Shown here piece by piece: positions 847-16,575 of a stretch of 64,000 nt of DNA. The notes under the pieces are model-generated. The model had not been told where the DNA came from and did not search any database. It worked only from the letters and a program-made list of their open reading frames with translations. This DNA comes from Cyanobacteriota bacterium (GTDB taxonomy: Bacteria > Cyanobacteriota > Cyanobacteriia > Cyanobacteriales > Microcoleaceae). The translations under genes were made by a program, and so were the position numbers. Each line of letters starts with the position of its first letter. Positions within the stretch are counted from its first letter, which is position 1. The stretch lies in NCBI GenBank assembly GCA_034189005.1, contig JAXHVR010000009.1, forward strand, positions 11,413 to 75,412. The letters run 5' to 3'.

Positions 847-1695
847 ATGAAAGAAATTGGCCGCAAGCCAGGTAGGTTTAGTAGTTGGCTGCCCGTTGAA
901 GATCGATGGTGGGTCAACTTTAACCTGCTGTTGACATTAGTACGAAGAGATTTAGAAGCTAGATATAAGGGTTCTATTCTCGGCAACCTGTGGCCATTAA
1001 TCAATCAGCTATCCCAACTCCTGATTTACACTTATGTCTTTTCCATCGTCCTCCAGGTAAAACTAAACCTCCAAGGACTGCCAACTGACAGTAAATTAAC
1101 CTTTGGACTGTGGTTGTTTGCCGGACTCGTACCGTGGTTAGCTTTTACTGGGGGTTTAACTCAGGCTGCTGCTTCGGTAATAGGACAGCCAAACTTGGTT
1201 AAAAAAGTGGTATTTCCTCTATCCTTGCTTCCCTTGGTTCCCATTTTTTCTACCTTCCTAGAAAGCACTTTTGGGTTAATCGCTTTAATAGCAATGGTAG
1301 GGTTATTAACTCACCAATTACATATTACTTTATTGCTGCTACCTTTGGTTTGGTTGCCTCAGCTTTTATTAACAGCAGGACTGGGATATTTTACTTCTGG
1401 CTTAACAGTATTTTTGCGGGATATTCCTCAGAGTTTGGGAGTAATTTTGAACCTATGGTTTTATTTGACTCCTATAGTTTATCCAGTGGATAAAATTCCC
1501 GAAAATTGGCAATTTCTGGTGTTTTGGTGCAATCCTTTAACAGCGATCGCCGAAGTTTATCGCGACCTGATTTTAACAGGAAAAGTGACTCACTGGATGG
1601 AGTTGGGAATTGCTAGCATAACTTCCTGCGTCGTCTTTTACATCGGGTTTCAAGTTTATAAAAAGTTGCGTCCAGCTTTTGCCGACGTCTTATAA
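847..1695 (+). CDS. wzm: ABC-2 type polysaccharide/O-antigen export permease (Wzm-like)
   Basis: 282 aa with about 6 hydrophobic segments. N-terminal LLLTLVRRDLEARYKGSILG motif is typical of Wzm/TagG/KpsM permeases. The ATPase partner lies directly downstream. Confidence 0.85.
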   Translation: MKEIGRKPGRFSSWLPVEDRWWVNFNLLLTLVRRDLEARYKGSILGNLWPLINQLSQLLIYTYVFSIVLQVKLNLQGLPTDSKLTFGLWLFAGLVPWLAFTGGLTQAAASVIGQPNLVKKVVFPLSLLPLVPIFSTFLESTFGLIALIAMVGLLTHQLHITLLLLPLVWLPQLLLTAGLGYFTSGLTVFLRDIPQSLGVILNLWFYLTPIVYPVDKIPENWQFLVFWCNPLTAIAEVYRDLILTGKVTHWMELGIASITSCVVFYIGFQVYKKLRPAFADVL

Positions 1696-1886: not shown

Positions 1887-3302
1887 ATGTCAGAAACCAT
1901 AATTTCTCTCCAAAATGTTTGCAAGTGTTTTAAACGGTATGCCCATCCAGCAGACCGTTTAAAAGAGATATTATTTCCGGGAAAAAGTCGGGCGGAAGAA
2001 TTCTGGGCGTTACGAGATATTAATATAGAAGTAAAAAGAGGGCATACTCTGGGAATTGTGGGGCGAAATGGTTCTGGTAAAAGTACCCTTTTGCAAATCA
2101 TTGTCGGAACTTTAACGCCGACAATGGGGGACGTACGAGTTATTGGTAGAATTTCCGCCCTGTTAGAGTTGGGCAGCGGATTTAATCCAGAATTTACTGG
2201 CAGGCAAAATGTCTTTTTTAACGGGCAACTTTTGGGTTTGAATACTCAAGAAATAGAAAAAAGATTCGATAAAATTGCTGGTTTTGCCGATATCGGCGAC
2301 TTTATCGACCAACCGGTAAAAACTTATTCTAGCGGGATGTTTATTCGGTTGGGTTTTGCCGTCGCTACTAGCGTGGATCCTGATATTTTAGTGGTAGATG
2401 AAGCTTTGTCGGTGGGAGATGAGGCTTTTCAGAGAAAGTGTTTTGCCCGCATTCAGGATATCCAAGAAAGGGGCGGGACGATTCTTTTCGTGTCTCATGC
2501 TGCTTCTACGGTGGTACAATTATGCGACTCGGCGATTTTGATGGATAGGGGAGAAATGCTGCTTTACCACAGCCCGAAATTTGTGGTTTCTAAGTATCAA
2601 AAATTGATTTATGCTTTCCCGGATAAAATACCGACTATTAGGGAGGAAATTAGAACTCTTCCTAATTTAACTGCTGATGATTATTCTTTGGGCGAAGATG
2701 CAGAAGAGGAGGAGGAAGAAGAAACTTCGGAATCTAATTCTACAACTGAGGCTGGAAATAATAATTCCAGCCATCCAGAGTCAGATTATGAGGAATATTA
2801 CGATGCCGAAATGATGCCTTCTAATACCATACATTACCCTAATAAGGGGGCGGAAATTATCGACCCTCATGTGATTGCTTTGGATGGTAGAAGGGTCAAT
2901 CATTTAATTAATCGTCGGGAATATATTTACACTTATAAAGTTGCTTTTAGAAATTCGACTTCTAAGGTTAGGTTTGGTATGTTGATTAAAACTTTAAGCG
3001 GGTTTGAGTTGGGAGGTGCTTCTTTACACGGTTACACTAAGTCGATAGACCGGGTTAAAGGTCAACAAACTGTTACTGTTAAGTTTAAGTTTCAATGCAT
3101 TTTAAATCCGGGAGTGTACTTTTTAAATGCTGGAGTGGTGGGAATGTCTGAAGACCATTTAACTTATTTGGCAAGGTGTATCGATGTGGCGATGTTTAGG
3201 GTGCAACATTGTACGGAACATTCCTGCGGTACGGGGGTTGTAGATTTGTTGGTGGAACCTAGTTTGAAGGTTCGCGATGGTTTGCTGGCAATTAATAATT
3301 AA
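1887..3302 (+). CDS. wzt: ABC glycan exporter ATP-binding protein with C-terminal carbohydrate-binding-type domain (Wzt-like)
   Basis: Walker A GRNGSGKST, signature YSSGM, Walker B ILVVDEALS. An acidic/Asn-rich linker (EEEEEEETSESNST) is followed by a ~150-aa beta-rich C-terminal domain as in Wzt_C. The ORF ends ...AINN* inside a heptamer array. Confidence 0.88.
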   Translation: MSETIISLQNVCKCFKRYAHPADRLKEILFPGKSRAEEFWALRDINIEVKRGHTLGIVGRNGSGKSTLLQIIVGTLTPTMGDVRVIGRISALLELGSGFNPEFTGRQNVFFNGQLLGLNTQEIEKRFDKIAGFADIGDFIDQPVKTYSSGMFIRLGFAVATSVDPDILVVDEALSVGDEAFQRKCFARIQDIQERGGTILFVSHAASTVVQLCDSAILMDRGEMLLYHSPKFVVSKYQKLIYAFPDKIPTIREEIRTLPNLTADDYSLGEDAEEEEEEETSESNSTTEAGNNNSSHPESDYEEYYDAEMMPSNTIHYPNKGAEIIDPHVIALDGRRVNHLINRREYIYTYKVAFRNSTSKVRFGMLIKTLSGFELGGASLHGYTKSIDRVKGQQTVTVKFKFQCILNPGVYFLNAGVVGMSEDHLTYLARCIDVAMFRVQHCTEHSCGTGVVDLLVEPSLKVRDGLLAINN

Positions 3303-3502: not shown

Positions 3503-4633
3503 ATGATAGTTGAGGCGGACGAAAGGATAGTTAAAAGTTGGTTGGAAGAGCAAACTAGGTATCCTCAAGATTTTAAGACTAATATCTCGGAAGCTGATGA
3601 GATGTTTTTATATGCTTTGCAGAATTTGGGCGATCGCGATCGCGCTACTATTCGTTATTATTTCATCGGTAAAAGAATACTTGATGCGGTAAAACAAGTT
3701 CTTAATTGGCACTTTGAGAAAACACAAATATCCTCTTTTCTCGATTTTGCTTGCGGTTACGGTAGGTTTACTCGCTATTTAATTCAGGAGTTGCCCCCAG
3801 AGAAAGTTTGGGTAGCGGATATTTACGCCGAGGCGGTGAATTTTCAACGGGAATATTTGGGGGTTAATGGCATTGTTTCGACGGTTGAACCGGAAGACTT
3901 TTCCCTGGAAAATAAGTTTGATTGTATTTTAGCTTGTTCCTTTTTTAGTCATATTCCCGAGAGAAGATTTGCCAGTTGGATGCAAAAGTTGTACGATTTG
4001 TTAACAAATGTAGGGGTGTTAATGTTTAGCGTCCACGATGAGGCGCTTTTGCCTTCTAATGTGGAAATAGGAAGTGGGGGAATTTTGTTTTCCCCTGCCA
4101 GCGAAAGTCGGTTTTTGGATAAGGAGGAATACGGCACTACTTTTGTTAATGAAGCATTTGTTAGGAAAGTAGTAGCATCGGTAAGCGAAGGCCAAGCATT
4201 TATTTGCCGCATAAAAGAGGGTATTTGCGGGGCTCAAGATTTGTATTTAGTAAGCAAAAAACCTTTCAAAGATTTGGATAGTTTTAATTTTCGATACCAT
4301 CCTAAAGCTGGTTTGGAGTATTGTCAGGCGATCGCTGACGATCGTATCCGTTTGAAGGGCTGGGCGATCGATCTCAACCCACAGGGTAAAATAGATGATA
4401 TTTTAATTGTTGTCAATGGCCAAATAGTTGAAAAATGCCAGCCAAGCTATTCGCGACCAGATCTGGCTGAAAGATTTCCAAATTCTGAGTTATTGAATTG
4501 CGGTTGGTCTTGCGATTTTGCCACGGATAAAGTATCCTTGGATGATGTTATTTCTATTAAGGCAGTTAATAATTATGGCTTGGAATGGATTATGGAGGTT
4601 AATACTCTAAAACAATTAACAACTAACAATTAA
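3503..4633 (+). CDS. class I SAM-dependent methyltransferase with C-terminal GW/RPD beta-module
   Basis: Motif I LDFACGYGRFTRYL. The C-terminal ~100 aa (RLKGWAID...SRPDLAERFP...GW) recurs in other proteins of the locus. Confidence 0.8.
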   Translation: MIVEADERIVKSWLEEQTRYPQDFKTNISEADEMFLYALQNLGDRDRATIRYYFIGKRILDAVKQVLNWHFEKTQISSFLDFACGYGRFTRYLIQELPPEKVWVADIYAEAVNFQREYLGVNGIVSTVEPEDFSLENKFDCILACSFFSHIPERRFASWMQKLYDLLTNVGVLMFSVHDEALLPSNVEIGSGGILFSPASESRFLDKEEYGTTFVNEAFVRKVVASVSEGQAFICRIKEGICGAQDLYLVSKKPFKDLDSFNFRYHPKAGLEYCQAIADDRIRLKGWAIDLNPQGKIDDILIVVNGQIVEKCQPSYSRPDLAERFPNSELLNCGWSCDFATDKVSLDDVISIKAVNNYGLEWIMEVNTLKQLTTNN

Positions 4634-4661: not shown

Positions 4662-7600
4662 ATGAATGCAAAAAATAGTAATAGTAAAAACCATAAAGCT
4701 TTTTTGATTTCTGGGATGCATCGTTCCGGTACTTCTTTGACAGCTTCTTTGCTGCAAAAGGCGGGGATTAATATTGGTAAAAAATTAGTGGGGCCGGAAT
4801 ATGGAAATATTAAGGGTCATTTTGAGAACATAGATTTTGTCAAATATCATCAGGAAATATTGCGATCGCAAAATATTGATGACTTGGGCAGCAACCTTTT
4901 AGACGAACAAGAAATTGTAATTGGAGAAAAGGAGAAAAAAAGAGGAAGACAGTTAATTAAAAAGCATCAAAAAGGTAAGGATTTGTGGGGGTGGAAAGAC
5001 CCTAGAACTACATTATTTTTGGATTTGTGGTTGGAATTACTGCCGTACGCAAACTTTATTTTTATCTTCCGATCGCCCTGGGAAGTAGTTGACTCTCTCT
5101 ATCGGCGATCGACGGATGAAAACTTGGTAGAATCTCCAGAGGTTGCCGTGAAAATGTGGCAGCTTTATAACCGCAGAATATTGAAATTTAATCAAAACTT
5201 ACCAGACCGATGCCTGATAGCTAACGTGGATAAGGTGGGTAAAAATCCTGAAGGTTTTATTAAAGCAATTAACGATAAATTTAATCTAAATTTAACAGCA
5301 CCATCGGAGGAAAACTTTGATGAATCTTTATTAATTAAAAATATAGAAAATACTCATCGCCCCTGGTTGATAGAGAAAAACTATCCCCAAACTTTAGAAA
5401 TTTATCGGCAGCTAAAAGCAGCGGCGATCGAAATCGAACCAGCGGACGATGGCGAAGAAAAAATTAGCGCCCCAACTTCAGAAAATTGGGCGTTTAGAGA
5501 TTGGTTCGACGTCCGCAGTTTAGAAAAACAAGCTCAGATTCTAGAATTAGAAGCTTTGCAATTACATAAAGATGTCGAAGACTGGCATAAATTATTTGAA
5601 GAAGCGCAAGAAAGAGCGATCGCCCTAGAAGCGGCATTAGGAGAAACGGAACTAAAACTAGACGGCAAAGAACTAAAACTACAAGAATCTTCAGAGAAAT
5701 TAGAAGGACTAGAAGCGGAACTCGGAGAAGCCCAAACACAGTTAGACGGTACTAAAGTTAAATTATTAGAATCTCAAACCAAAGTAGCAACTTTAGAAAG
5801 AAAACTCGGACAAACCCAAGCACAATTAGACGGTACCCAGGTCAAACTTATAGACTCCCAGAAAAAAGTCCTGGGATTAGAAACAGATTTAGGGCAAACT
5901 CAAGCCAGACTGGAAGGTTCTGAAACTCGCTTTCAAGAATCTTTAACTAAACTTGTGGGACTAGAAACTAAACTCGGTCAAACCGAGGTGCAATTAGAAG
6001 GGACTAAAACCAAATTACATCAGTCTCAGAAGCTTTTGTTAGGACTGGAAACAGAATTAGGACACGCTCAAATTCAGTTGAATACTACTCAATTGAAATT
6101 AGAAGAGTCCCAGAAGAAAATACAGGGTTTAGAGAAAGAATTGGGAGACACTCAGTTGCGACTGGATGGTTCTCAAGCACAAATAAAAGAGTCCCAGGCA
6201 AAAATAGGAGAGTTAGAAGGGGAACTGGGAGAAACCCAACAGCGACTGGATGGTTCTCAAGCACAAATAAAAGAGTCCCAGGCAAAAATAGGAGAATTAG
6301 AAGGGGAACTGGGGCAAACCCAACAGCGACTGGATGGTTCTCAAGGACAAATAAAAGAGTCCCAGGCAAAAATAGGAGAGTTAGAAGGGGAACTGGGAGA
6401 AACTCAGTTGCGACTGGATGGCAGTCAAAACCAATTAAAACAATCTCAATCAAAAATAGGGGAGTTAGAAGGGGAACTGGGGCAAACCCAACAGCGACTC
6501 AACGGCACTCAAGTCAAATTAGATGAGTCCCAGGGGAAAATACAGGTATTAGAAACGGAACTGGGGCAGACTCAACAACAACTACAGGGGACTCAGGCAC
6601 AACTGGGGCAAACTCAAGCAGAATTAACTCAAACCCAGACTGCCCTCGGTCAAACTCAAAGCGCCCTAAGCCAAACCCAGACATTATTAGGAGAAACTCA
6701 GACGGTTTTGGTGCAAACCGAGGTGACTCTGGGGCAAACTCAGGCAGAATTAATCGCCCAACGGCAGGAAACTCAAGAACTGCGGGAAGAAATTTTAGCC
6801 ATGAGATCTTCCAAGTTCTGGAAACTGCGGGAGAAATGGTTTAATTTCAAACGGAGACTGCGGGGGTTGCGATATTGCATCCGCAAGGCTTCGCCAACGC
6901 GCTTTGTCTTCTCCCTCGACACTCCCACCAGTTGGGAAATTTCCAGCCCTCAATTAGAAGTAGTTGGCTGGTGTTTTGCGCAGGGCGCAAACTTATTTAA
7001 CAACAATAACGGAAATCTTGAAGTGGATGCCATCCGCGCCCGCATCGCAGACCGAACCTTTGACGGCAGCTACGGCATCGAACGCCTCGACGTCGCCCAA
7101 AAACACGACCATACCCCCGCCGCCCAAAATTCGGGCTTCCAAATTCAACTGGAACTACCCCCAGGACGGCATCAACTGGTACTAGAAGCAAAAGATAGGA
7201 AGGATAAATGGCATAGCATCGCCTCCTATCCCATCATCGTTTCCACGGTTCAAGCAAACTTCGATGCCCCGGCAACCTTCGAACAACGGGAAGGAATGGT
7301 GTTATTTGCCGGCTGGTGTTGCCATCCAGAGAAGAAAATTTCCAAATTAACCCTGCGTTGCGGCGATGTTTCTATCGACTGCGCCTACGGTTTGCGTCGC
7401 AAAGATGTCGCCGAAGCTTTCCCACAATGGGTTGGCAGTTTGGATAGCGGTTTCGAGGCAACTGTAGAGTTACCGCCGGGAGAATGGCCGCTAATTTTAG
7501 AGGCAACTTTAGATACCGGGGAAATTGTCGGTTTTCAATGCCAGAATAGTTTGAAAGTCCGCCGCTACGGCGTTTTAGACCGCGCTAAAGACAAGCGCCT

Positions 7601-10600
7601 GGAGTTGTTGCAGCTTGGGGCTGCGGTTCGCAAGCGCGCCGCTGAGAGGAAACAGCGTTTGGGGCGGATCGTACCTTTGCCCTGGGAGTTGCCCCGCGTC
7701 GCCCGCCGGGTTATCGAGATGTATCGGGAACAAAAAAGTTTTGGGGAGTTGTCGCCGCCGGCTGGTTTTCTGATGCCGGTGTCGGTGGAACCTTACGAAG
7801 CTTGGTTGGAGGTGAATAAATGGGGCGATCGCGCTTTCGATCGTCTGACATCTCGCTTGGAAGGGGCGGCGGCGGATAGTTTGCCGAAAATTTCCGTGGT
7901 GATGCCGGTTTATAACCCGCCAGTGGAGTTTTTACGGGAGGCGATCGCCAGCGTAACCAACCAAGTTTACCAAAACTGGGAACTCTGCATCGCCGACGAC
8001 TGCAGTACCGACCCGGAAATTCGCCAAATTTTAAGCGAGTTGGCAGCGGACGATCCAGCCGACGACGACCGTAGAACAGGCGTCTCGCCTGTTCCAGCAG
8101 AAAGCGACGACCGTAGAACAGGCGTCTCGCCTGTTCCAGCAGACCCTCGCATCAAAATAAAATTTCGCGAAGAAAACGGCAACATCAGCGCCGCGACCAA
8201 CACCGCCGCCTCTCTGGCGACGGGAGACTTTATTCTATTCCTAGACAACGACGACGAACTAACTCCCGACGCCCTAGCAGAAGTCGCCCTCTATCTGGCA
8301 GAACATCCAGAAACCGACTTCCTCTATTCCGACGACGACAAGATCGATACGGAAGGCGATCGCTTCGACCCTCAATTCAAACCCGAATGGTCTCCAGAGT
8401 TGCTTCTATCCTTCATGTACATGGGGCATCTCTGCGCGGTTCGCCGAGAAATCTTTGAAAAAGTCGGAGGTTTGCGAGTCGGTTACGAAGGTTCCCAAGA
8501 CTACGACTTCGCCCTCCGGGCAACGGAAGTTTCCCGCAAAGTTGCCCATTTACCGTTAATCTTGTACCACTGGCGAACCGCCCCCGGTTCCACTGCCGTT
8601 TCCGGCGGCGAAAAACCTGCCAGTTTTGCAGCGGGGCGGCAGGCGGTACAAGATGCCTTGGATCGTCGCGGGGTTTCGGGGAAAGTAGATCGACCGGACT
8701 GGGCGATCGCTGAGAATTTGGGAATTTTTGCCCCGGAGTTTCCCCAGACCGGCCCTTCGGTGACGATTATTATTCCTACTAAAAATCAACTCCATTTTAT
8801 CAAGGGTTGTCTGGAGTCTCTGGAGAAGACTTCTTATCAGAATTATCGGGTTTTTGTCATCGATAATGAAAGCGACGATCCGAAAACTTTGGAGTATTTG
8901 GAAGGTGTTGGAGGATCCCCCCCTGCCCCCCTTGAAAAGGGGGGAGAAAGAAAGGTTGGAAAAGCGGGAGAAGTACGGGTTTTAAAAATACCTAATGAGG
9001 GGGGGAAATTTAATTTTGCCGCCATTAATAACCGCGCTGTCGAACAAGCAGAAACAGATTATATTCTATTTCTTAATAACGACACGGAAATTATTACCGA
9101 AAATTGGTTGAGTCAGATGGTTGGTTACGCCCAACTCCCCGGAGTCGGTGCCGTTGGGGCGAAGCTGATTTATCCAGACGGACGGATCCAACACGCGGGA
9201 ATAATTCACGGTTTGCATCACGGTCTGGCGGGTCATGCTTTTAAGTTAATGCCTTCGGAAAATCGCGGTTATTTGTCTCAAGCTGCGGTAGGGAGAAATT
9301 ATTCGGCGGTGACTGCTGCTTGTATGTTAACTCATAGGGAATTGTTTTTAGAAATGGGCGGTTTTGACGAGGAGAAATTCGCCGTTGCTTATAACGATGC
9401 GGACTACGGTTATCGACTTTTAGAAAAAGGTTATCGTTCGGTTTATTGCCCCGAAGCGGAGTTAATTCATCGGGAAGGAACCAGTCGCGGTTTTGTGGAT
9501 AATCCCCGGGAGGAAGCAATTTTTCGCCGCCGCTATGCCGAGATGGTAGATAAGTTTTATAGTCCCCATTTCTCTCTGGCAAATGAGTTATTCGAGGTTC
9601 AACCTCGGCGCTATTTTCTATCCCCCCCAACTCCCCTTGGAAAAGAGGAAGACCGTAGAACAGGCATCTTGCCTGTTGATGATGCGGAACAAGAAACCCG
9701 GTTTTTTGGAAAAACCGGGTTTCTGGGGGGGAGGAAAATTACATTATTAATGTGCAGTAATTCTTTAGATTTTACTGGGGCGCCTTTACATCAATACGAA
9801 ATTGCAGTTCAACTAGCTTCTGAAGGAATAGTTAAACCCATAATATTTTCTCCCACGGAAGGTCCGTTGCGTAAGGTTTACGAGGAGAAAAATATTGAAG
9901 TAATAGTGTTAGATAATCCCCTGGAACATATTTATCAACGGGATGATTACGATGCCGCATTGGAAAGCTTTGCTAAAGAAATAGAAGGGCTAAATGCTGA
10001 CGTAATTTATGCTAATACTTTAGAGAACTTTTTCCTAATAGATATTGCCCAGATGCTAAATATTCCTAGCGTTTGGAACGTTCACGAAAGCGAACCTTGG
10101 CAAACTTATTTTAATCGCTTCGGACCGGAAATAGCGACTCGCGCTTTGGAATGTTTCCGCTATCCTTATCGGATTATTTTTGTGGCGGATGCGACGCGGG
10201 ATAAATATTTACCTCTCAACAGTCACCATAATTTTACGGCAATTCATAACGGTTTGGATTTGGAATTGTTGAAAAGTTCGGCTAAGAAATGGTCTCCAGA
10301 GGAGGCGAGGGCGGCTTTGGGAGTTAATTCCGATGAGATTGTTTTGTTAATTTTGGGGACGGTTTGCGAAAGAAAAGGTCAAGAAGATTTGGTTAAAGCA
10401 ATACCTTATATTGGGGCGGAATGGGTAGGTAAAATTAAGTGTTTTATTGTAGGCGATCGCCCCAGTTTATATAGCAGTCAATTATCTGCTTTGGTGGCGG
10501 GTTTACCAGAGGAGTTAAAAGGGCGCATAGAAATAGTTCCAGAAACTCCCGATACTGCCAAATATTATCAAGCAGCAGATATCTTCGTTTGTACTTCGCG

Positions 10601-10895
10601 AATAGAAAGTTATCCCCGAGTAATCTTAGAGGCAATGGCTTATAATTTGCCAATAGTTACGACTCCAGTTTTCGGCATTGTGGAACAAGTGAAACCGGGA
10701 ATTAACGGTTTGTTTTATACCCCAAACCAACCCGAAGAATTAGCCTCGCAGTTGATGATTTTATTGGAGGATGAAGAGTTAAGGTTGCGACTGGGAGATA
10801 ATGCGAAATATGTGTTGGATGCGTTGAATACTTTTGAAGAAATGACCGCAGCTTACAGTCAGATATTTTGCGAAGCGTATTTGAGTCGTTCGTAA
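4662..10895 (+). CDS. 2077-aa multidomain glycan assembly protein: sulfotransferase, ~430-aa coiled coil, 2x beta-module, GT2, GT2, GT4
   Basis: PAPS-type motifs GMHRSGTS and FRSPWEVVDSLYRR. 28-aa/7-aa repeats span nt ~5520-6810. GT2 signatures are VVMPVYNP..DDCSTD..LDNDDE and IIIPTKN..IDNESDD..LNNDTE. The C-terminal GT4-like part reads FVCTSRIESYPRVILEAMAYNLPIV. Confidence 0.85.
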   Translation: MNAKNSNSKNHKAFLISGMHRSGTSLTASLLQKAGINIGKKLVGPEYGNIKGHFENIDFVKYHQEILRSQNIDDLGSNLLDEQEIVIGEKEKKRGRQLIKKHQKGKDLWGWKDPRTTLFLDLWLELLPYANFIFIFRSPWEVVDSLYRRSTDENLVESPEVAVKMWQLYNRRILKFNQNLPDRCLIANVDKVGKNPEGFIKAINDKFNLNLTAPSEENFDESLLIKNIENTHRPWLIEKNYPQTLEIYRQLKAAAIEIEPADDGEEKISAPTSENWAFRDWFDVRSLEKQAQILELEALQLHKDVEDWHKLFEEAQERAIALEAALGETELKLDGKELKLQESSEKLEGLEAELGEAQTQLDGTKVKLLESQTKVATLERKLGQTQAQLDGTQVKLIDSQKKVLGLETDLGQTQARLEGSETRFQESLTKLVGLETKLGQTEVQLEGTKTKLHQSQKLLLGLETELGHAQIQLNTTQLKLEESQKKIQGLEKELGDTQLRLDGSQAQIKESQAKIGELEGELGETQQRLDGSQAQIKESQAKIGELEGELGQTQQRLDGSQGQIKESQAKIGELEGELGETQLRLDGSQNQLKQSQSKIGELEGELGQTQQRLNGTQVKLDESQGKIQVLETELGQTQQQLQGTQAQLGQTQAELTQTQTALGQTQSALSQTQTLLGETQTVLVQTEVTLGQTQAELIAQRQETQELREEILAMRSSKFWKLREKWFNFKRRLRGLRYCIRKASPTRFVFSLDTPTSWEISSPQLEVVGWCFAQGANLFNNNNGNLEVDAIRARIADRTFDGSYGIERLDVAQKHDHTPAAQNSGFQIQLELPPGRHQLVLEAKDRKDKWHSIASYPIIVSTVQANFDAPATFEQREGMVLFAGWCCHPEKKISKLTLRCGDVSIDCAYGLRRKDVAEAFPQWVGSLDSGFEATVELPPGEWPLILEATLDTGEIVGFQCQNSLKVRRYGVLDRAKDKRLELLQLGAAVRKRAAERKQRLGRIVPLPWELPRVARRVIEMYREQKSFGELSPPAGFLMPVSVEPYEAWLEVNKWGDRAFDRLTSRLEGAAADSLPKISVVMPVYNPPVEFLREAIASVTNQVYQNWELCIADDCSTDPEIRQILSELAADDPADDDRRTGVSPVPAESDDRRTGVSPVPADPRIKIKFREENGNISAATNTAASLATGDFILFLDNDDELTPDALAEVALYLAEHPETDFLYSDDDKIDTEGDRFDPQFKPEWSPELLLSFMYMGHLCAVRREIFEKVGGLRVGYEGSQDYDFALRATEVSRKVAHLPLILYHWRTAPGSTAVSGGEKPASFAAGRQAVQDALDRRGVSGKVDRPDWAIAENLGIFAPEFPQTGPSVTIIIPTKNQLHFIKGCLESLEKTSYQNYRVFVIDNESDDPKTLEYLEGVGGSPPAPLEKGGERKVGKAGEVRVLKIPNEGGKFNFAAINNRAVEQAETDYILFLNNDTEIITENWLSQMVGYAQLPGVGAVGAKLIYPDGRIQHAGIIHGLHHGLAGHAFKLMPSENRGYLSQAAVGRNYSAVTAACMLTHRELFLEMGGFDEEKFAVAYNDADYGYRLLEKGYRSVYCPEAELIHREGTSRGFVDNPREEAIFRRRYAEMVDKFYSPHFSLANELFEVQPRRYFLSPPTPLGKEEDRRTGILPVDDAEQETRFFGKTGFLGGRKITLLMCSNSLDFTGAPLHQYEIAVQLASEGIVKPIIFSPTEGPLRKVYEEKNIEVIVLDNPLEHIYQRDDYDAALESFAKEIEGLNADVIYANTLENFFLIDIAQMLNIPSVWNVHESEPWQTYFNRFGPEIATRALECFRYPYRIIFVADATRDKYLPLNSHHNFTAIHNGLDLELLKSSAKKWSPEEARAALGVNSDEIVLLILGTVCERKGQEDLVKAIPYIGAEWVGKIKCFIVGDRPSLYSSQLSALVAGLPEELKGRIEIVPETPDTAKYYQAADIFVCTSRIESYPRVILEAMAYNLPIVTTPVFGIVEQVKPGINGLFYTPNQPEELASQLMILLEDEELRLRLGDNAKYVLDALNTFEEMTAAYSQIFCEAYLSRS
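6158..6577 (+). repeat. five near-identical 84-bp (28-aa) tandem units inside the coiled-coil region
   Basis: GCGACTGGATGG recurs at 6158, 6242, 6326, 6410 and 6494, exactly 84 nt apart. The unit encodes LEGELGETQQRLDGSQAQIKESQAKIGE. Confidence 0.95.
6563..6752 (+). repeat. nine 21-bp (heptad) tandem units, consensus LGQTQxx
   Basis: CAAAC(T/C)CA(A/G)-type units every 21 nt; peptide LGQTQAE LTQTQTA LGQTQSA LSQTQTL LGETQTV. Confidence 0.9.
8064..8142 (+). repeat. two in-frame tandem copies (42-nt period) of the GTAGAACAGGCGTCTCGCCTGTT palindromic element inside a GT2 domain
   Basis: GACGACCGTAGAACAGGCGTCTCGCCTGTTCCAGCAG occurs at 8064 and 8106 and encodes DDRRTGVSPVPAES twice. Confidence 0.95.
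9654..9723 (+). repeat. in-frame GTAGAACAGGCATCTTGCCTGTT element plus AGAAACCCGG/CCGGGTTTCT hairpin in the GT2-GT4 linker
   Basis: Encodes RRTGILPV...ETRFFGKTGFL. Both elements also occur intergenically in the window. Confidence 0.95.
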
Positions 10896-11450: not shown

Positions 11451-13574
11451 ATGATTTTAGTTATTAGCCGTCTAACCATCAAATCTAAACTGACAATTAT
11501 GCTTTTAGGAGTCAGTTTGGGTTCCATATTAGTCATCGGATACTTAAGCTGGAATCGCGCGCGAAATACCCTCCAAGAAACCATATTCAATCAATTAACC
11601 AGCGTCCGTTCTTCCAAAGCTTATCAAATCGAATCATACTTCCAAAACCTGCGAAATCATGTAGAAACTCTCTCGGAAAACCGGATGATTGTCGCCGCAA
11701 TGGTAGAATTTAATAAAGAATTCAAACAGCTAAATAGAGCATATATTCCCGTAGATTGGGTAACGAAAATAGAGGGATATTATGAAAACGAATTTTTCCC
11801 CAGACTCTCTAAAAATATCCCAGGTCAACCCAATATCGAAAACTACCGGCCTTTAGGTCAAGCAGCGAGATACCTTCAATATTATTACGTCGCCAATAAC
11901 CCCAATCCTTTAGGAGAAAAAGACAATTTAGTAAAAGCAGAAGACGGTAGCGAATACAGCAATTATCATGCTAAATACCACCAACTTTTCAGAAATTTAA
12001 TTAAAAAATTTGGCTACTACGATTTATTTTTAATTAATTTTGAAACAGGAGATATCGTCTATTCCGTTTATAAAGAAACCGATTATGCGACTAATTTACA
12101 ACGAGGCCCCTACCGTCAAAGCAATTTGGCAAAAGTAATCCAAAAAGTACGAGAAAATCCCGATCGCGGTTCGATTCAATTAGTCGATTTTCAACCCTAC
12201 CGCCCTTCTTATGCAGCCCCCGCTGCCTTCTTCGCCGCCCCAATTTATAACGGACCTTATATCGTCGGTATTTTAGCAGTACAACTTCCAGTGGATGAAA
12301 TTAATAATGTCTTGACTGGAAACCAAAATTGGGAGGGAGATGGTTTGGGAGAATCTGGGGAAACTTATTTAGTAGGTTCTGACTTTTTAATGCGGTCTAT
12401 TTCTCGATTTTTGATTGAAGATATGGAGGAATATACCAAAACCTTGAGGGCGATCGCTACCCCAGAAAGCACTGTCGAATTAATCCAACAATTACAAACA
12501 TCTATTTTATTACAATTAGTAGATACCGAAGCCGCCAGAGAAGCCCTCCAAGGCATTAAAGGCACGAAAATAGTTGACGATTATCGCGGCATACCGGTTC
12601 TTAGTTCCTATTCTCCTCTTAATATTGAAGGAGTAGATTGGGCGATTTTATCAGAAATGGACGTTGCGGAAGCTTACCGACCGATGTACGGCTTGCAAAC
12701 ATACCTTTTAAGAGCAACTGTAATTCTTATTTTACTAATTACCTTTCTCGCCTGGCTTCTTGCTTATAAATTTGTCGAACCCATTAATACAATTATGGAA
12801 AAGGTCCGTAAAGTAGGCGACGGGGAACTCGATGTGGAAGTGAAATTAAACTCTAAAGATGAGTTCGGAGAACTGGCGCACACTTTTAACGAAATGGTTC
12901 GCGGCATCCGCCAACAAACTAAGTTAATTGAGGAAAAAAATCGCGAAAATGAGGAATTGTTATTAAATATTTTGCCAACAGCAGTGGCAGAAAGAATGAA
13001 AAAAGGCGAAGATAGCATCGCCGATCGCATCGAAGAAGTTACCGTATTATTTGCAAGTTTGGGAGGTTTGAGCAAATTTGGTGCTTCTAGGGAAGTCCGG
13101 GAAATTGCTAATATGCTTAACGAGTTAATTCATTCTTTCGATGTCCTGGCAGAAAAACATTATGTGGAAAAATTGAAAACTATTAGCGAACGTTACATTG
13201 GCGTTTGTGGGGTCGCAACTCCCCGTTTGGACCATGCCAAACAATCCTTGGATTTGGCTTTGGAAATGTTACATACTCTGGAACGTTTTAATAGCAAATA
13301 CGGAACCGATCTGACTCTGCGCATCGGCATCGATAGCGGGGAAGTGATGGCTGGAATTATTGGTATTAAAAAGTTCATGTACGACCTCTGGGGCGAGACC
13401 GTAAATATTGCCAGTTACCTCAGCCTTGAAGCTAAATCGAATACGATTTTAGTCAGCGAAGAAATTTATAATAGTTTGCACGATTTATATGTTTTTCAAC
13501 CGGGGGAGGCGATGGAGTTTGAAGATAAAGGTTTGTTGAAAACTTGGATGTTAATCGATCGTTGTAAATTGTAA
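11451..13574 (+). CDS. membrane sensor protein: TM, large periplasmic (Cache-like) domain, TM, HAMP, class III cyclase-homology domain
   Basis: AAGGAG RBS. HAMP reads EPINTIMEKVRKVGDGELDV..EFGELAHTFNEMV. The CHD reads VTVLFASLGGLS..KLKTISERYIGV..RIGIDSGEVMAGIIG..YDLWGETVNIASYL, and its catalytic positions look non-canonical. Confidence 0.85.
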   Translation: MILVISRLTIKSKLTIMLLGVSLGSILVIGYLSWNRARNTLQETIFNQLTSVRSSKAYQIESYFQNLRNHVETLSENRMIVAAMVEFNKEFKQLNRAYIPVDWVTKIEGYYENEFFPRLSKNIPGQPNIENYRPLGQAARYLQYYYVANNPNPLGEKDNLVKAEDGSEYSNYHAKYHQLFRNLIKKFGYYDLFLINFETGDIVYSVYKETDYATNLQRGPYRQSNLAKVIQKVRENPDRGSIQLVDFQPYRPSYAAPAAFFAAPIYNGPYIVGILAVQLPVDEINNVLTGNQNWEGDGLGESGETYLVGSDFLMRSISRFLIEDMEEYTKTLRAIATPESTVELIQQLQTSILLQLVDTEAAREALQGIKGTKIVDDYRGIPVLSSYSPLNIEGVDWAILSEMDVAEAYRPMYGLQTYLLRATVILILLITFLAWLLAYKFVEPINTIMEKVRKVGDGELDVEVKLNSKDEFGELAHTFNEMVRGIRQQTKLIEEKNRENEELLLNILPTAVAERMKKGEDSIADRIEEVTVLFASLGGLSKFGASREVREIANMLNELIHSFDVLAEKHYVEKLKTISERYIGVCGVATPRLDHAKQSLDLALEMLHTLERFNSKYGTDLTLRIGIDSGEVMAGIIGIKKFMYDLWGETVNIASYLSLEAKSNTILVSEEIYNSLHDLYVFQPGEAMEFEDKGLLKTWMLIDRCKL

Positions 13575-13580
13575 ATTGTT

Positions 13581-15017
13581 ATGGAAGAATCTATCTTAAT
13601 TTGGGGAGTGGCTTTAATTTTAGGCTTTCCTCTGGTCAGCCTTGTATTAGGAGAAGCGATCGATCGCTTAGAACGCGATCGCCATCCTTTAGCTAAATTC
13701 TTGGGCAATACTCGCACTTTAATTTTGCCACCTTTGGCAGTGTTGTTAGTAATGCAATTAATCCTCGATGTTACTGACGGTCTTTTTTTGCGAATAGTCG
13801 AGACGCTTTACTGGATCGCAGCAACGATAACCTGCTTATCTCTAGTAAATGGAGTCCTCACCACCAAAAGCAAAACCGCTGCTTGGCAATTACGACTACC
13901 AAATCTCTTTTTTCAAGTTGCGCGCGCCCTCGTAGTTTTAGCGATCGCTTCCTATCTTCTCGGAGGCATCTGGTCGATCGATCTCAGCAGAGTTGCCAGC
14001 GCCTTGGGAGTTGGTTCCTTAGTAATTGCCCTCGCCTTACAAGATACTCTCAGCAACCTAGTTTCTGGATTCTTGCTGCTATTTTCTAAACCTTTCGTCG
14101 TCGGCGACTGGATTAAATACGGAGATTACGAAGGTCGGGTTATCGACCTAAACTGGCGGGCGGTGACTATAGAAACTATTTTCAAAGTTCATATCGTCAT
14201 CCCCAACGGAGTTTTAGGGCAAGAAACCATCGTTAACTATTCCATGGAACCGGCCCGGTGGGACTCGATTCAAATAGGTTTCTCTTACGACCATCCCACC
14301 AACTACGTTATGGACGTCTTAAAAAGTTTGACAAAAGACATTAAAGATATCGCCACCGATCCCCCACCCTTTGCTTGCGTAGATGCCTACGACGATTTCG
14401 CCATCACCTATTCTTTATGGTTTTGGGTTCTACCAGAGAAGGCGTGGTTCGTTCAAAACGAACTCAAAGGCAGGATTTTCTATGCTGCGAAACGTCACGA
14501 CCTCAATATTCCCTTTCCCATCAGGACTTTGCATCACGTTAGGACTCCCAGCAGCGTCCCGGATGTTGGTATTGAGATTGCCGAATTTCTCCACTCGCTT
14601 CCGTATTTCACGTCTTTGGAAGAGTGGACGATCGCTTCTCTTGCTAGAACTGCGGACATCAAATATTATGGAAAAGGCGAGAGAATTGTTAAAGAAGGAG
14701 AATTCGATTTAGGTCTTTATATTATTGAAGAAGGGACGGTCAAGCTTTCAGTTACCGACGATCGCGATCGCCGTTCAGAAGTCGTCAGTCTGGGGCCGGG
14801 AGATTTCTTTGGAGAAATGGCACTCCTCCCAGGGGAAGCAAGTTTGGTATCCGTGACGGTTATTGAGGATTTGAAAGCTATTTTTATAGATAGCGTTTCC
14901 GCAATTAATTCGATCCAGGGAAATTCTAAGTTTATCGCCCAGATGAATAAATTCGTCGAACAGCGTACCGAAACCGTGACTTTGGTTAAAGGAAGCAAAG
15001 ATTTGTTAAATAATTAA
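13581..15017 (+). CDS. MscS-family mechanosensitive channel with C-terminal cyclic-nucleotide-binding domain (bCNG-type)
   Basis: MscS core LALQDTLSNLVSGFLLLFSKPFVVGDWI...VIPNG. The C-terminal CAP_ED-like part reads GERIVKEGE..LYIIEEGTV..GDFFGEMALL. Starts 7 nt after the cyclase-homology gene. Confidence 0.85.
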   Translation: MEESILIWGVALILGFPLVSLVLGEAIDRLERDRHPLAKFLGNTRTLILPPLAVLLVMQLILDVTDGLFLRIVETLYWIAATITCLSLVNGVLTTKSKTAAWQLRLPNLFFQVARALVVLAIASYLLGGIWSIDLSRVASALGVGSLVIALALQDTLSNLVSGFLLLFSKPFVVGDWIKYGDYEGRVIDLNWRAVTIETIFKVHIVIPNGVLGQETIVNYSMEPARWDSIQIGFSYDHPTNYVMDVLKSLTKDIKDIATDPPPFACVDAYDDFAITYSLWFWVLPEKAWFVQNELKGRIFYAAKRHDLNIPFPIRTLHHVRTPSSVPDVGIEIAEFLHSLPYFTSLEEWTIASLARTADIKYYGKGERIVKEGEFDLGLYIIEEGTVKLSVTDDRDRRSEVVSLGPGDFFGEMALLPGEASLVSVTVIEDLKAIFIDSVSAINSIQGNSKFIAQMNKFVEQRTETVTLVKGSKDLLNN

Positions 15018-15043
15018 TAATTAATAATTAATAATTAATAATT
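15008..15043. repeat. heptamer array (TAATAAT) containing the MscS-cNMP stop
   Basis: Period-7 repeat. Confidence 0.9.
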
Positions 15044-15054
15044 GTCCCAATTAT

Positions 15055-15141
15055 GATTATGAAAAATTAGGGGGCCAGAAACCCGGTTTCTCAAAGAAAC
15101 CGGGTTTCTAAAATATCGCGAACGATCTACGGCTTGCTATA
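15055..15141. mobile_element. TATAGCAA-family element, 5'-truncated copy
   Basis: GATTATGAAAAATTAGGGGGCCAGAAACCCGGTTTCTCAAAGAAACCGGGTTTCT...CGGCTTGCTATA. Confidence 0.8.
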
Positions 15142-15219
15142 GTTTGAAAAAACCCGGTTTCTGTTCCACGCCCAGATCTCCCGTTTCACTTTCAAAGATG
15201 CATCCAGGAGGACAGCCTA

Positions 15220-16293: not shown

Positions 16294-16296
16294 TAT

Positions 16297-16539: not shown

Positions 16540-16575
16540 TGCCCAAGCCTCTGACTATAACCCACATTCCCACAA

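What the first reader, a model, noticed from the sequence alone, without database searches (positions are those of the whole stretch)
4662..10895. Sulfotransferase, 430-aa coiled coil and three-GT polymerase fused in one protein: a possible sulfate-capping molecular ruler for an ABC-exported glycan
Seen: a single 2077-aa ORF with the following parts, in order. (1) N-terminal PAPS-type sulfotransferase motifs (GMHRSGTS; FRSPWEVVDSLYRR). (2) About 430 residues of uninterrupted heptad/28-aa repeats. (3) Two ~100-aa beta-modules. (4) GT2, GT2 and GT4 domains. Directly upstream are wzm and a wzt that carries a C-terminal cap-binding-type domain. Established: in ABC-transporter-dependent O-antigen pathways, chain length is set by a terminating enzyme held away from the polymerase by a coiled coil. 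Examples are E. coli O9a WbdD (methyl/phosphate cap) and Klebsiella O12 / Raoultella WbbB (beta-Kdo cap, with terminator, coiled coil and GTs in one polypeptide). The Wzt C-terminal domain reads the cap. Inference: this protein follows WbbB logic but with a sulfotransferase at the terminator position. That would make sulfate the chain-terminating export signal, with a ruler several times longer than the described ones. I am not aware of such a system being described.
Basis: partly seen in the sequence, partly recalled or inferred. Interest (0 to 1): 0.85.

Follow-up and report, generated by a model that had tools for sequence, protein, structure and literature searches.

The report
Sulfotransferase-headed coiled-coil glycan polymerase, cyanobacterial
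A 2077-residue cyanobacterial enzyme holds a sulfate-adding domain about 63 nm from three sugar-adding domains on a rigid rod, next to a sugar-chain exporter. This is the layout bacteria use to measure and cap surface sugar chains, but here with sulfate, a cap chemistry we found described nowhere.

Summary
ORF 4662..10895 encodes a sulfotransferase domain (PAPS is the activated-sulfate donor such enzymes use). Profile, motifs and fold all agree on this. It is followed by an unbroken ~427-residue heptad/28-residue-repeat coiled coil, a conserved basic Trp-rich helix, two Ig-like β-modules, then GT2, GT2 and GT4. wzm and a wzt with a Wzt_C carbohydrate-binding module (CBM) lie upstream.

One correction: a methyltransferase gene (3503..4633) sits between wzt and the giant gene, and it is co-conserved with them.

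The fused protein is not a one-off. 47 of 80 related genomic loci (Microcoleus, Okeania, Arthrospira, Planktothrix and others) have it, and 38 of 43 with enough flank have wzm plus wzt-CBM. Spacer length varies from ~45 to ~440 residues. Relatives also exist as ST–coiled coil–amphipathic helix proteins, the WbdD layout. Homologous chassis carry methyltransferase or GT2 heads instead. One operon has an APS kinase (the PAPS-making enzyme) between wzt and the ST-polymerase.

Best reading (~0.55): a WbbB/WbdD-type ruler-terminator machine with a sulfotransferase terminator, possibly working with the methyltransferase.

Main rival: the sulfotransferase decorates internal residues of a spirulan-like sulfated rhamnan.

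I rate it a new variant of a known kind. No prior description was found.

The parts
847..1695 (+). wzm, ABC-2 type permease of the glycan exporter
   Evidence: Pfam ABC2_membrane 8e-23. Present on the same strand in 41 of 43 fused loci with enough flank.
1887..3302 (+). wzt, the ATPase of the exporter. NBD aa ~1-260. C-terminal Wzt_C carbohydrate-binding module aa 315-454 (nt ~2829..3248).
   Evidence: Pfam ABC_tran 1.9e-20 and Wzt_C 4.3e-25, 88.8 bits. The NBD is closest to Aquifex aeolicus Wzt 8dku/7k2t, E=4.6e-72. The CBM is conserved across 53 ST-linked loci (median 63% identity), including R343, R362, K368, R430, R438.
3503..4633 (+). SAM-dependent methyltransferase (aa ~58-187) with a C-terminal beta-module (aa ~255-376). 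It is co-conserved with the system and is a candidate co-terminator or internal O-methylase.
   Evidence: Pfam Methyltransf_12/25/23/11. The C-terminus shares the GW...RxD[VL]AExFP signature with beta-module 2 (E=0.004). Present in 37 of 43 fused loci. Fused N-terminally to the ST head in Hormoscilla L049/L054 and UBA2566 L065. No specific similarity to WbdD.
4662..10895 (+). The giant ORF, 2077 aa: ST - coiled coil - basic helix - 2 beta-modules - helical linker - GT2 - GT2 - GT4
   Evidence: The same one-ORF architecture occurs in 47 related loci.
4662..5516 (+). N-terminal PAPS-type sulfotransferase domain (aa 1-285), the proposed chain terminator
   Evidence: Sulfotransfer_3, 37 bits. Family-invariant residues R21, S22, G23, S25, E55, K112, R137, S145. 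Profile hits to CurM ST, OLS ST and TPST1. AF2 pLDDT >90 in the core. All top 50 Foldseek PDB hits are sulfotransferases.
5517..6797 (+). Coiled-coil rod (aa 286-712, ~63 nm if fully helical), built of 28-residue units; the proposed molecular ruler
   Evidence: Lag-28 identity 0.60. Unbroken heptad phase, 0 Pro. AF2 continuous helix aa 274-419. The spacer varies from ~45 to ~440 aa among relatives.
6158..6542 (+). 84-bp DNA tandem repeat (4.6 copies, 84% matches) inside the coiled coil; evidence of recent unit duplication
   Evidence: Tandem Repeats Finder. Assemblies of orthologues break here with N gaps.
6801..6884 (+). Conserved basic, Trp-rich helix MRSSKFWKLREKWFNFKRRLRGLRYCIR (net charge +10); candidate membrane-interface anchor at the proximal end of the rod
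   Evidence: The motif is conserved in all fused orthologues and lies at the extreme C-terminus of stand-alone ST-CC relatives. The protein has no TM segment. The membrane-binding role is inferred.
6900..7565 (+). Two tandem Ig/FnIII-like beta-sandwich modules (aa ~747-860 and ~864-968)
   Evidence: Mutual homology E=2e-14. AF2 pLDDT 70-88. Foldseek matches are generic FnIII/Ig tandems. 488 representative proteins carry the module, often in several copies. Function unknown: glycan binding or complex assembly.
7875..8696 (+). GT2 module 1 (aa ~1072-1345), DNDDE motif
   Evidence: Pfam Glycos_transf_2 / Glyco_tranf_2_2. Conserved in orthologues.
8745..9611 (+). GT2 module 2 (aa ~1362-1650)
   Evidence: Pfam Glycos_transf_2, best stretch aa 1368-1508; Glyco_tranf_2_3 aa 1365-1611.
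9729..10871 (+). GT4 (GT-B) module (aa ~1690-2070)
   Evidence: Pfam Glycos_transf_1 1.5e-32 and Glyco_trans_4_5. PDB GT4 hits.
19681..20385 (+). Second methyltransferase of the conserved cluster. In the window it is displaced ~8.8 kb downstream.
   Evidence: Pfam Methyltransf_25/11. The order MT2 > GT4 directly follows the giant gene in 27 of 36 full-length loci.
20433..21695 (+). Stand-alone GT4 (Glyco_trans_4_3 + Glycos_transf_1) of the conserved cluster; a possible primer/adaptor GT
   Evidence: Pfam 1e-72. Conserved downstream partner. The role is inferred.
18790..19545 (+). Separate small Sulfotransfer_1 enzyme; a candidate for internal sulfation
   Evidence: Pfam Sulfotransfer_1 3.4e-20. 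Found near the fused gene in only 6 of 36 loci.
42959..44382 (+). rmlC and rmlD (dTDP-L-rhamnose synthesis); a possible sugar supply for the glycan
   Evidence: Pfam dTDP_sugar_isom 2.4e-73 and RmlD_sub_bind 7e-107. The link to this cluster is inferred.

Best explanation
This is a single-polypeptide polymerase-terminator of an ABC-transporter-dependent glycan pathway. It is built on the WbbB / K. pneumoniae O7-ORF6 plan, with a PAPS-dependent sulfotransferase (ST) in the terminator position.

Proposed mechanism, with each step marked:
1. The protein oligomerises through its ~427-residue coiled coil (inferred).
2. It sits on the cytoplasmic face of the membrane through the conserved basic Trp-rich helix at the rod's proximal end (inferred).
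3. The GT2-GT2-GT4 modules extend an undecaprenyl-linked, probably rhamnose-containing chain at its non-reducing end. The stand-alone GT4 may help (inferred from domain content).
4. Only when the chain is long enough to span the ~63 nm rod can its tip reach the sulfotransferase. A rough estimate is ~125-140 sugars.
5. The sulfotransferase sulfates the terminal residue and blocks further extension. The co-conserved methyltransferase possibly acts with it (inferred).
6. The capped end is recognised by the Wzt C-terminal carbohydrate-binding module, which licenses export by Wzm/Wzt (inferred by analogy with E. coli O9a, K. pneumoniae O12/O4/O7).

Shown here: the domain identities, the continuous helical heptad rod, the conserved synteny, and the modularity of the head.
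Not shown: sulfation of the terminus, ruler behaviour, CBM specificity.
For: 1. The ST identity is secure. Pfam Sulfotransfer_3 passes the gathering threshold. The invariant 5'-PSB (RSGxS), KDP and 3'-PB (R...S) motifs align with TPST1. AF2 pLDDT is 86, and the top 50 PDB fold hits are all sulfotransferases.
2. The ST sits at the end of an unbroken ~427-aa heptad rod, opposite the GT modules. In every characterised system that position is held by the terminator (PMC11231755).
3. wzt carries Wzt_C. Of 43 fused loci with enough flank, 41 have wzm and wzt, and 38 have a recognisable Wzt_C.
4. Relatives exist as (MTase-)ST-CC-amphipathic helix proteins next to wzt-CBM and separate GT genes (L003, L049, L054, L062). 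That is the WbdD layout.
5. Homologous CC-beta-GT2-GT2(-GT4) chassis carry other heads: Methyltransf_24 in P0171 and P0191, GT2 in P0129 and P0175. These are the known terminator classes.
6. Trichormus L085 has the order wzm - wzt(Wzt_C) - APS kinase - ST-CC-GT2-GT2, with no methyltransferase in that core. The ST is the only non-GT modifier there, and it has a dedicated PAPS supply.
7. Spacer length varies from ~45 to ~440 aa by whole repeat units, while the flanking modules stay constant. That is expected of a tunable ruler.
8. Geometry: a catalytic site ~63 nm from the membrane-anchored reducing end is poorly placed to modify every repeat unit. Separate small sulfotransferase and methyltransferase genes are available for that.
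Against: - There is no experimental datum on the glycan, the enzyme or the transporter.
- A methyltransferase with a beta-module is co-conserved between wzt and the giant gene (37 of 43 loci). In Hormoscilla it is fused to the ST head. The methyl group, or methyl plus sulfate, could therefore be the cap.
- Three fused relatives (L059, L063, L083) sit beside a Wzt of only ~244-255 aa with no CBM. The ST head does not always go with cap-gated export.
- The best-known sulfated glycan of an orthologue-bearing genus, Arthrospira spirulan, is sulfated and O-methylated on internal repeat units (PMC11339812).
- Lyngbya L070 has only a ~45-aa spacer.
- Many stand-alone ST-CC paralogues lie far from any wzm/wzt.
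- The repeat is Gly-rich (10%) with Thr/Ser at the a+3 core position. Its oligomeric state and rigidity are unknown.
- The membrane role of the basic helix is inferred only.
Confidence: 0.55

Rival explanations
1. Decorating enzyme, not a terminator. The cluster makes a spirulan-like sulfated, O-methylated rhamnan (CPS, EPS or sheath polymer), and the N-terminal sulfotransferase sulfates internal repeat units. The coiled coil only oligomerises or scaffolds the synthase. Chain length and export are set otherwise, for example by the methyltransferase as cap or by transporter stoichiometry.
For: - Arthrospira has an orthologue (L040), and its spirulan is internally sulfated and methylated rhamnan (PMC11339812).
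- Maeda et al. proposed that an ABC-type cluster with sulfotransferases makes the A. platensis sulfated CPS (PMC8205485).
- rmlC and rmlD are in the window.
- Three relatives have a CBM-less Wzt.
- L070 has almost no spacer.
Against: - A catalytic site held ~63 nm from the polymerase and the lipid anchor cannot service every repeat unit evenly.
- The rod is an unbroken, repeat-expanded heptad array whose length varies between species, which is more than oligomerisation needs.
- Heads are swapped for methyltransferase or GT2 on homologous chassis, as terminators are.
- Separate small Sulfotransfer_1 and methyltransferase genes are available for internal decoration.
- 38 of 43 loci keep a CBM on Wzt.
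Confidence: 0.25
2. The methyltransferase is the real cap-maker. The neighbouring methyltransferase (3503..4633) adds the terminal O-methyl group that Wzt_C reads, as in E. coli O8 / K. pneumoniae O5 or G. stearothermophilus WsaE. The sulfotransferase adds a subterminal or secondary modification.
For: - The methyltransferase is encoded immediately after wzt and is present in 37 of 43 fused loci.
- Methyl caps are the commonest established terminator chemistry (PMC11231755).
- The methyltransferase is fused to the ST in Hormoscilla, which suggests joint action.
Against: - The methyltransferase is not on the coiled coil in the window. Its beta-module resembles the membrane-proximal modules of the polymerase, which would place it near the polymerase rather than at the distal tip.
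- Trichormus L085 keeps wzt-CBM plus ST-CC-GT2-GT2 with an APS kinase and no methyltransferase in the core operon.
- There is no similarity to the WbdD methyltransferase.
Confidence: 0.13
3. Non-glycan substrate. The TPST-like sulfotransferase head sulfates a protein tyrosine or a lipid/small molecule, and its fusion to the GTs reflects co-regulation only.
For: The closest structural and profile matches include tyrosylprotein sulfotransferases and the PKS-associated CurM/OLS sulfotransferases.
Against: - The domain is covalently fused to a three-GT polymerase in 47 loci and embedded in wzm/wzt glycan-export operons.
- No candidate peptide substrate gene is conserved nearby.
- The similarity to TPST is limited to the shared PAPS-binding core (15-20% identity).
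Confidence: 0.03

Closest known systems
WbbB of Klebsiella pneumoniae O12 / Raoultella terrigena (terminator, coiled coil and two polymerase GTs in one polypeptide)
   Same: - Order of parts: N-terminal terminator-position domain, then coiled coil, then C-terminal polymerising GT modules.
- Partnered with Wzm/Wzt, whose Wzt carries a CBM (PMC11231755).
   Different: - The head is a PAPS sulfotransferase, not a GT99 beta-Kdo transferase.
- No WbbB chain appeared among the PDB matches to the C-terminal 1371 aa.
- There are three GT modules instead of two, plus two extra beta-sandwich modules.
- The rod is much longer: ~427 residues, ~63 nm.
ORF6 of K. pneumoniae O7 (methyltransferase-kinase-CBM, coiled coil, two GT2 modules)
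   Same: - A single protein with a small-group-transferring terminator ahead of a coiled coil and GT2 polymerase modules.
- A beta-sandwich/CBM-like module is present in the same polypeptide.
- Orthologues are reported to exist with or without attached GTs, including in cyanobacteria (PMC11231755).
   Different: - The cap chemistry there is methyl-phosphate, made by two fused enzymes. Here the head is a sulfotransferase and the methyltransferase is a separate gene (fused only in Hormoscilla).
- The beta-modules here lie on the polymerase side of the rod, not beside the terminator.
WbdD/WbdA of E. coli O9a / K. pneumoniae O3
   Same: - The ruler principle: catalytic head, trimeric coiled coil, C-terminal membrane-binding region.
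- Stand-alone relatives of the window's head (L003, L062, L049/L054) have exactly this layout and end in the conserved SKFWKLR helix.
- Two modifying enzymes may cooperate, as the kinase and methyltransferase do in WbdD.
   Different: - WbdD's rod is ~20 nm (PMC5082667), versus ~63 nm here.
- There is no kinase here.
- The window's methyltransferase shows no specific similarity to WbdD.
- In the window the polymerase is fused, not recruited.
Xss sulfotransferases of the Synechocystis synechan pathway, and the ABC-type sulfotransferase clusters listed by Maeda et al. 2021
   Same: Cyanobacterial polysaccharide clusters that encode PAPS sulfotransferases. Maeda et al. note ABC-type clusters with sulfotransferases and suggest one makes the A. 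platensis sulfated CPS (PMC8205485).
   Different: - Synechan is made by a Wzx/Wzy pathway, with internal sulfation by stand-alone enzymes.
- No coiled coil, ruler or terminator role was proposed there.

Membership tests
Coiled-coil ruler/terminator systems of ABC-transporter-dependent glycan assembly (functional class: WbdD, WbbB, O4-ORF7, O7-ORF6) | Encoded together with a Wzm/Wzt ABC-2 exporter | tested here: met
   wzm 847..1695 and wzt 1887..3302 are on the same strand upstream. Conserved in 41 of 43 loci.
Coiled-coil ruler/terminator systems of ABC-transporter-dependent glycan assembly (functional class: WbdD, WbbB, O4-ORF7, O7-ORF6) | Wzt carries a C-terminal carbohydrate-binding module | tested here: met
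   Wzt_C, 88.8 bits, aa 315-454. Caveat: three related loci have a CBM-less Wzt.
Coiled-coil ruler/terminator systems of ABC-transporter-dependent glycan assembly (functional class: WbdD, WbbB, O4-ORF7, O7-ORF6) | An extended coiled coil separates a modifying enzyme from the polymerase/membrane end | tested here: met
   Unbroken heptad phase aa 300-685 with 0 Pro. AF2 continuous helix. ST is N-terminal and the GTs are C-terminal.
Coiled-coil ruler/terminator systems of ABC-transporter-dependent glycan assembly (functional class: WbdD, WbbB, O4-ORF7, O7-ORF6) | A membrane-association element at the proximal end of the coiled coil | tested here: inconclusive
   A conserved basic Trp-rich helix (net +10) lies directly after the rod, and at the C-terminus of stand-alone relatives. 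No TM segment. Membrane binding has not been demonstrated.
Coiled-coil ruler/terminator systems of ABC-transporter-dependent glycan assembly (functional class: WbdD, WbbB, O4-ORF7, O7-ORF6) | The distal enzyme modifies the non-reducing terminal residue and stops polymerisation | not testable with these tools
   Needs the glycan structure (NMR/MS) and in vitro assays.
Coiled-coil ruler/terminator systems of ABC-transporter-dependent glycan assembly (functional class: WbdD, WbbB, O4-ORF7, O7-ORF6) | Modal chain length scales with coiled-coil length | not testable with these tools
   Only natural spacer variation (~45-440 aa) was observed. No chain-length data exist.
WbbB protein family (GT99 beta-Kdo transferase head) | N-terminal GT99 beta-Kdo transferase domain and sequence homology to WbbB | tested here: not met
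   The head is Sulfotransfer_3. No WbbB chain appears among the 35 PDB matches (E<=1e-3) to the C-terminal 1371 aa. The resemblance is architectural, not homology.
WbdD family (kinase + methyltransferase terminator) | Kinase and methyltransferase catalytic domains homologous to WbdD | tested here: not met
   No kinase domain. The neighbouring methyltransferase has no WbdD hit in PDB at E<=1.
PAPS-dependent sulfotransferase superfamily (Pfam Sulfotransfer_3; TPST/CurM-ST-like) | 5'-phosphosulfate-binding loop and 3'-phosphate-binding motif | tested here: met
   GMHRSGTS (R21, S22, G23, S25) and R137...S145 are invariant in 46 family members. They align with GVPRSGTTL and RDGRASVHS of TPST1, and K112-D-P aligns with K-D-P.
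PAPS-dependent sulfotransferase superfamily (Pfam Sulfotransfer_3; TPST/CurM-ST-like) | Sulfotransferase fold | tested here: met
   AF2 pLDDT 86. The top 50 Foldseek PDB hits are all sulfotransferases, best E=1.7e-7.
PAPS-dependent sulfotransferase superfamily (Pfam Sulfotransfer_3; TPST/CurM-ST-like) | PAPS-dependent sulfuryl transfer activity and acceptor identity | not testable with these tools
   Indirect support only: an APS kinase gene lies inside the homologous Trichormus operon.
GT2 and GT4 glycosyltransferases (polymerase modules) | Profile match above threshold, with a DxD-type motif in the GT2 modules | tested here: met
   Glycos_transf_2 146.9 bits with 3 stretches; Glycos_transf_1 113 bits. 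DNDDE and NNDTE are conserved in orthologues.

The most novel reading that the evidence does not exclude
Sulfate, alone or together with an O-methyl group added by the co-conserved methyltransferase, is a previously undescribed chain-terminating cap in ABC-transporter-dependent glycan assembly. A dedicated Wzt CBM reads it as the export licence. A repeat-expandable coiled coil of up to ~63 nm sets chain length, and its unit number differs between Oscillatoriales species, so it tunes glycan length. This machine would be the long-sought synthase for spirulan-like sulfated rhamnans of filamentous cyanobacteria.
Probability: 0.35. Interest if true: 0.75.

Novelty: new variant of a known kind. Interest (0 to 1): 0.62.

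Why it matters
Chain termination coupled to export is an established principle for O-antigens, but the caps known so far are methyl, methyl-phosphate and Kdo. A sulfate cap would add a new chemistry and a new CBM specificity.

It would also extend the ruler paradigm to cyanobacteria, to rods about three times longer than WbdD's.

The family offers a natural series of ruler lengths, from ~45 to ~440 residues across culturable genera (Microcoleus, Arthrospira, Planktothrix, Okeania). That makes the ruler hypothesis directly testable by comparing chain lengths.

It also gives a concrete candidate gene cluster for the commercially and medically studied sulfated polysaccharides of Arthrospira ('Spirulina'), whose biosynthesis is unknown.

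If the sulfotransferase only decorates internal residues, the locus is still the first defined ABC-type synthase candidate for such polymers, but the conceptual novelty falls.

Tried and rejected
- Artefactual ORF fusion: rejected. The same single ORF occurs in 47 loci, and the splits seen in L005, L021, L030 and L039 are N gaps inside the repeat.
- The Gly-rich 28-mer is not helical: rejected. The heptad phase is unbroken, the glycines sit at outward positions, there is no Pro, and AF2 gives a continuous helix.
- Beta-modules as a specific CBM: not established. The AF2 model is only moderate (5-sequence alignment, pLDDT 66) and the Foldseek hits are generic Ig/FnIII tandems.
- Protein-database search with the beta/linker region returned only 4 fragments. 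The representative-library search was used instead.
- Single-sequence PDB search with the ST head was insignificant (E=0.18). A family profile was needed.
- Methyltransferase versus WbdD: no relationship found.
- The TPST-like similarity suggested protein-tyrosine sulfation: rejected on context.
- Look-up of P0074 gave no record. The Whitfield 2020 JBC review is not held in the library, so I could not check whether it lists sulfotransferase-type candidates.
- Contexts of the stand-alone ST-CC paralogues were only glanced at.
- Contexts of the methyltransferase-headed and GT2-headed chassis could not be fetched under the tool's restrictions.

Full report
**Observation.**
The ORF at 4662..10895 (+) is real and encodes 2077 residues. 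Pfam places the following domains:
- Sulfotransfer_3 at aa 15-211 (37 bits, threshold 27).
- Coiled-coil-type families across aa ~286-718.
- Two Glycos_transf_2 modules (aa ~1075-1300 and 1365-1613).
- A GT4 module (Glycos_transf_1, aa ~1695-2049).

Upstream are wzm (847..1695, ABC2_membrane) and wzt (1887..3302, ABC_tran plus Wzt_C at 88.8 bits). A 376-aa SAM-methyltransferase gene (3503..4633) lies between wzt and the giant gene.

**The head is a sulfotransferase.**
- A single-sequence PDB search was weak (CurM ST, E=0.18).
- The domain belongs to a family of at least 1,671 proteins.
- In an alignment of 46 members, R21, S22, G23, S25, E55, K112, R137, S145, R148 and R149 are invariant. These residues include the 5'-phosphosulfate loop, a K-D-P motif and the 3'-phosphate motif.
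- The family profile reaches CurM ST, the olefin-synthase ST and TPST1 at E = 5e-4 to 3e-3. The alignments read GmhRSGtSL/GVPRSGTTL, WKDP/NKDP and YRsPWevvdS/VRDGRASVHS.
- An AlphaFold2 model of aa 1-420 has mean pLDDT 86, with the core mostly above 90.
- All 50 best Foldseek matches in the PDB are PAPS-dependent sulfotransferases.

**The rod.**
- Residues ~286-712 show 60% self-identity at lag 28, with about 13 units in register.
- The heptad phase is unbroken from aa 300 to 685. One position is 93% L/I/V/M/F, and the a+3 position is Thr/Ser/Leu.
- There is no proline in 427 residues. The 10% glycine sits at outward-facing positions.
- AlphaFold2 models aa 274-419 as one helix.
- At 0.148 nm per residue the rod would be ~63 nm, about three times the ~20 nm of WbdD (PMC5082667).
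- An 84-bp DNA tandem repeat (6158..6542) shows recent unit duplication.

**After the rod.**
Directly after the rod comes MRSSKFWKLREKWFNFKRRLRGLRYCIR, with net charge +10. This motif is conserved in all orthologues, and the protein has no transmembrane segment. I infer an interfacial membrane anchor.

Two beta-sandwich modules follow. They are homologous to each other (E=2e-14) and model at pLDDT 70-88. Their fold matches are generic Ig/FnIII tandems. The methyltransferase's C-terminus carries a weakly related module (E=0.004).

**Comparative genomics.**
A scan of species-representative genomes found at least 592 relatives of the head, and 80 loci were kept. A domain-by-domain script gave the following:
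- ST and GT modules lie in one ORF in 47 loci. Four more are split only by N gaps in the repeat (one search shows an example).
- The genera include Microcoleus, Tychonema, Okeania, Dapis, Limnoraphis, Arthrospira, Planktothrix, Lyngbya and Kamptonema.
- Of the 43 fused loci with at least 4.5 kb upstream, 41 have wzm and wzt, 38 have a recognisable Wzt_C, and 37 have the methyltransferase.
- A second methyltransferase and a stand-alone GT4 follow the giant gene in 27 of 36 full-length loci. In the window these are at 19681..21695, displaced by ~8.8 kb.
- The ST-to-anchor spacer ranges from ~180 to ~440 aa among fused orthologues, while the beta-region stays ~335 aa. One Lyngbya variant has only ~45 aa.

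**Other layouts in the family.**
- ST-CC-GT2-GT2 proteins of ~1,100 aa occur with wzm/wzt in Nostoc, Trichormus and Coleofasciculus.
- (MTase-)ST-CC proteins of 420-660 aa end in the same SKFWKLR helix and lie beside wzt-CBM and separate GT genes (L003, L049, L054, L062). This is the WbdD layout.
- In Trichormus L085 the operon reads wzm, wzt(Wzt_C), APS kinase, ST-CC-GT2-GT2, with no methyltransferase in that core.

**The head is interchangeable.**
A search of 1.8 billion representative proteins with the beta/linker region found 488 relatives. Homologous CC-beta-GT2-GT2(-GT4) chassis carry the following heads:
- Sulfotransfer_3 in at least 13 clusters.
- Methyltransf_24 in P0171 and P0191.
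- GT2 in P0129 and P0175.
- Unidentified heads, or none.

Methyltransferases and GTs are the established terminator classes (PMC11231755). The sulfotransferase thus occupies a slot that evolution fills with terminators.

**Interpretation.**
The best-supported reading is a WbbB/O7-ORF6-type polymerase-terminator with a sulfotransferase terminator and a very long, tunable ruler. In this reading export is gated by the Wzt CBM. That CBM is strongly conserved in ST-linked loci, including five basic residues. The NBD is closest to the CBM-bearing Aquifex Wzt.

This is an analogy, not homology. No WbbB or WbdD chain appears in the sequence searches.

**Evidence against, and the rivals.**
- The co-conserved methyltransferase may be the cap-maker or a co-cap-maker. 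In Hormoscilla it is fused to the ST head.
- Three fused relatives have a Wzt with no CBM.
- Arthrospira, which has an orthologue, makes spirulan. This is a rhamnan sulfated and O-methylated on internal repeats (PMC11339812). Maeda et al. suggested that an ABC-type sulfotransferase cluster makes the A. platensis sulfated CPS (PMC8205485).
- The window has rmlC and rmlD, plus a separate Sulfotransfer_1 and further methyltransferases.

The geometric argument favours the cap reading: a site 63 nm from the anchor cannot modify every repeat evenly. It does not prove it.

**Novelty.**
Five full-text searches for sulfotransferase terms combined with ruler, terminator or Wzt terms found no description of such a system. 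A sixth, on Wzt CBMs and terminal sulfate, returned only an unrelated mass-spectrometry review. The 2024 Whitfield-lab survey lists only methyl, methyl-phosphate and Kdo terminators. The 2020 JBC review could not be consulted.

I rate this a new variant of a known kind. Confidence in the terminator reading is ~0.55, and interest is 0.62.

Noticed in passing
window 8063..8143, 9658..9678, 44382..44515, 61285..61444, and also 3354, 17043, 36978, 40271, 41187: A 21-nt palindromic repeat, GAACAGGCGTCTCGCCTGTT(N), is dispersed through the window: about 17 sites against 0 expected. It occurs mostly as intergenic arrays. Three copies are inserted in frame in the giant ORF. One is a perfect 42-bp tandem duplication encoding DDRRTGVSPVPAES twice, in a GT2 loop. 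Another lies in the GT2b-GT4 linker. Further copies lie inside ORFs 16576..17787 and 39746..41518. Orthologues lack these insertions, except the closest relative L006, which has a different copy at the same loop.
   Followed up: partly
window 11451..19545: About 8.8 kb separates the giant gene from its usual downstream partners (MTase2, GT4). It holds a Cache-HAMP adenylate/guanylate cyclase, an MscS channel with a cNMP-binding domain, a PBP-like protein, a methyltransferase, an unknown ORF and a Sulfotransfer_1 gene. It looks like an insertion relative to the Microcoleus gene order (L005).
   Followed up: partly
window 25637..27331 (-) and 28101..32780 (+): There are further multi-domain glycan enzymes: an MTase-GT fusion, and a 1559-aa MTase-GT4-GT2-GT41-like protein. 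Pfam reports no coiled-coil-type families for the 1559-aa protein. This may be a second glycan or protein-glycosylation system.
   Followed up: no
window 22264..24318 and 33873..39237: An RTX (HemolysinCabind) protein lies near a C39-peptidase ABC exporter with an N-terminal cNMP-binding domain and a HlyD-like protein, i.e. a type I secretion set. RTX-like genes also neighbour the ST-CC genes in Oscillatoria princeps (L003) and Planktothrix (L004).
   Followed up: no
L049 and L054 (Hormoscilla), L065 (UBA2566): The methyltransferase and the sulfotransferase are fused in one ORF. In L049 the order is MTase-ST-CC-amphipathic helix, ~655 aa. All three lie beside wzm and wzt-CBM. This is a two-enzyme head reminiscent of WbdD's kinase plus methyltransferase.
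   Followed up: partly
L059, L063, L083: ST-(CC)-GT fusion proteins sit beside a Wzt of only ~244-255 aa that lacks any C-terminal CBM. In these lineages the sulfotransferase head is uncoupled from CBM-gated export.
   Followed up: partly
L055, L057, L058, L061, L064, L066-L068, L074, L076, L078: Stand-alone ST-coiled-coil paralogues of 460-1005 aa have no wzm/wzt within 10 kb. One is a second copy in Arthrospira platensis PCC 7345 (L076). Their partners and function are unknown.
   Followed up: no
L046 (Okeania sp. KiyG1), and L010/L011: The GT2b-GT4 linker is hypervariable. It can expand to about 1,000 residues of low-complexity repeats, which accounts for orthologue lengths up to 3031 aa.
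   Followed up: partly
L001 (Gloeocapsa sp. PCC 7428): A 298-aa family member lies between a sulfatase and a GT4 gene, near PAPS reductase, with no ABC exporter nearby. This suggests a different use of the same sulfotransferase family.
   Followed up: no
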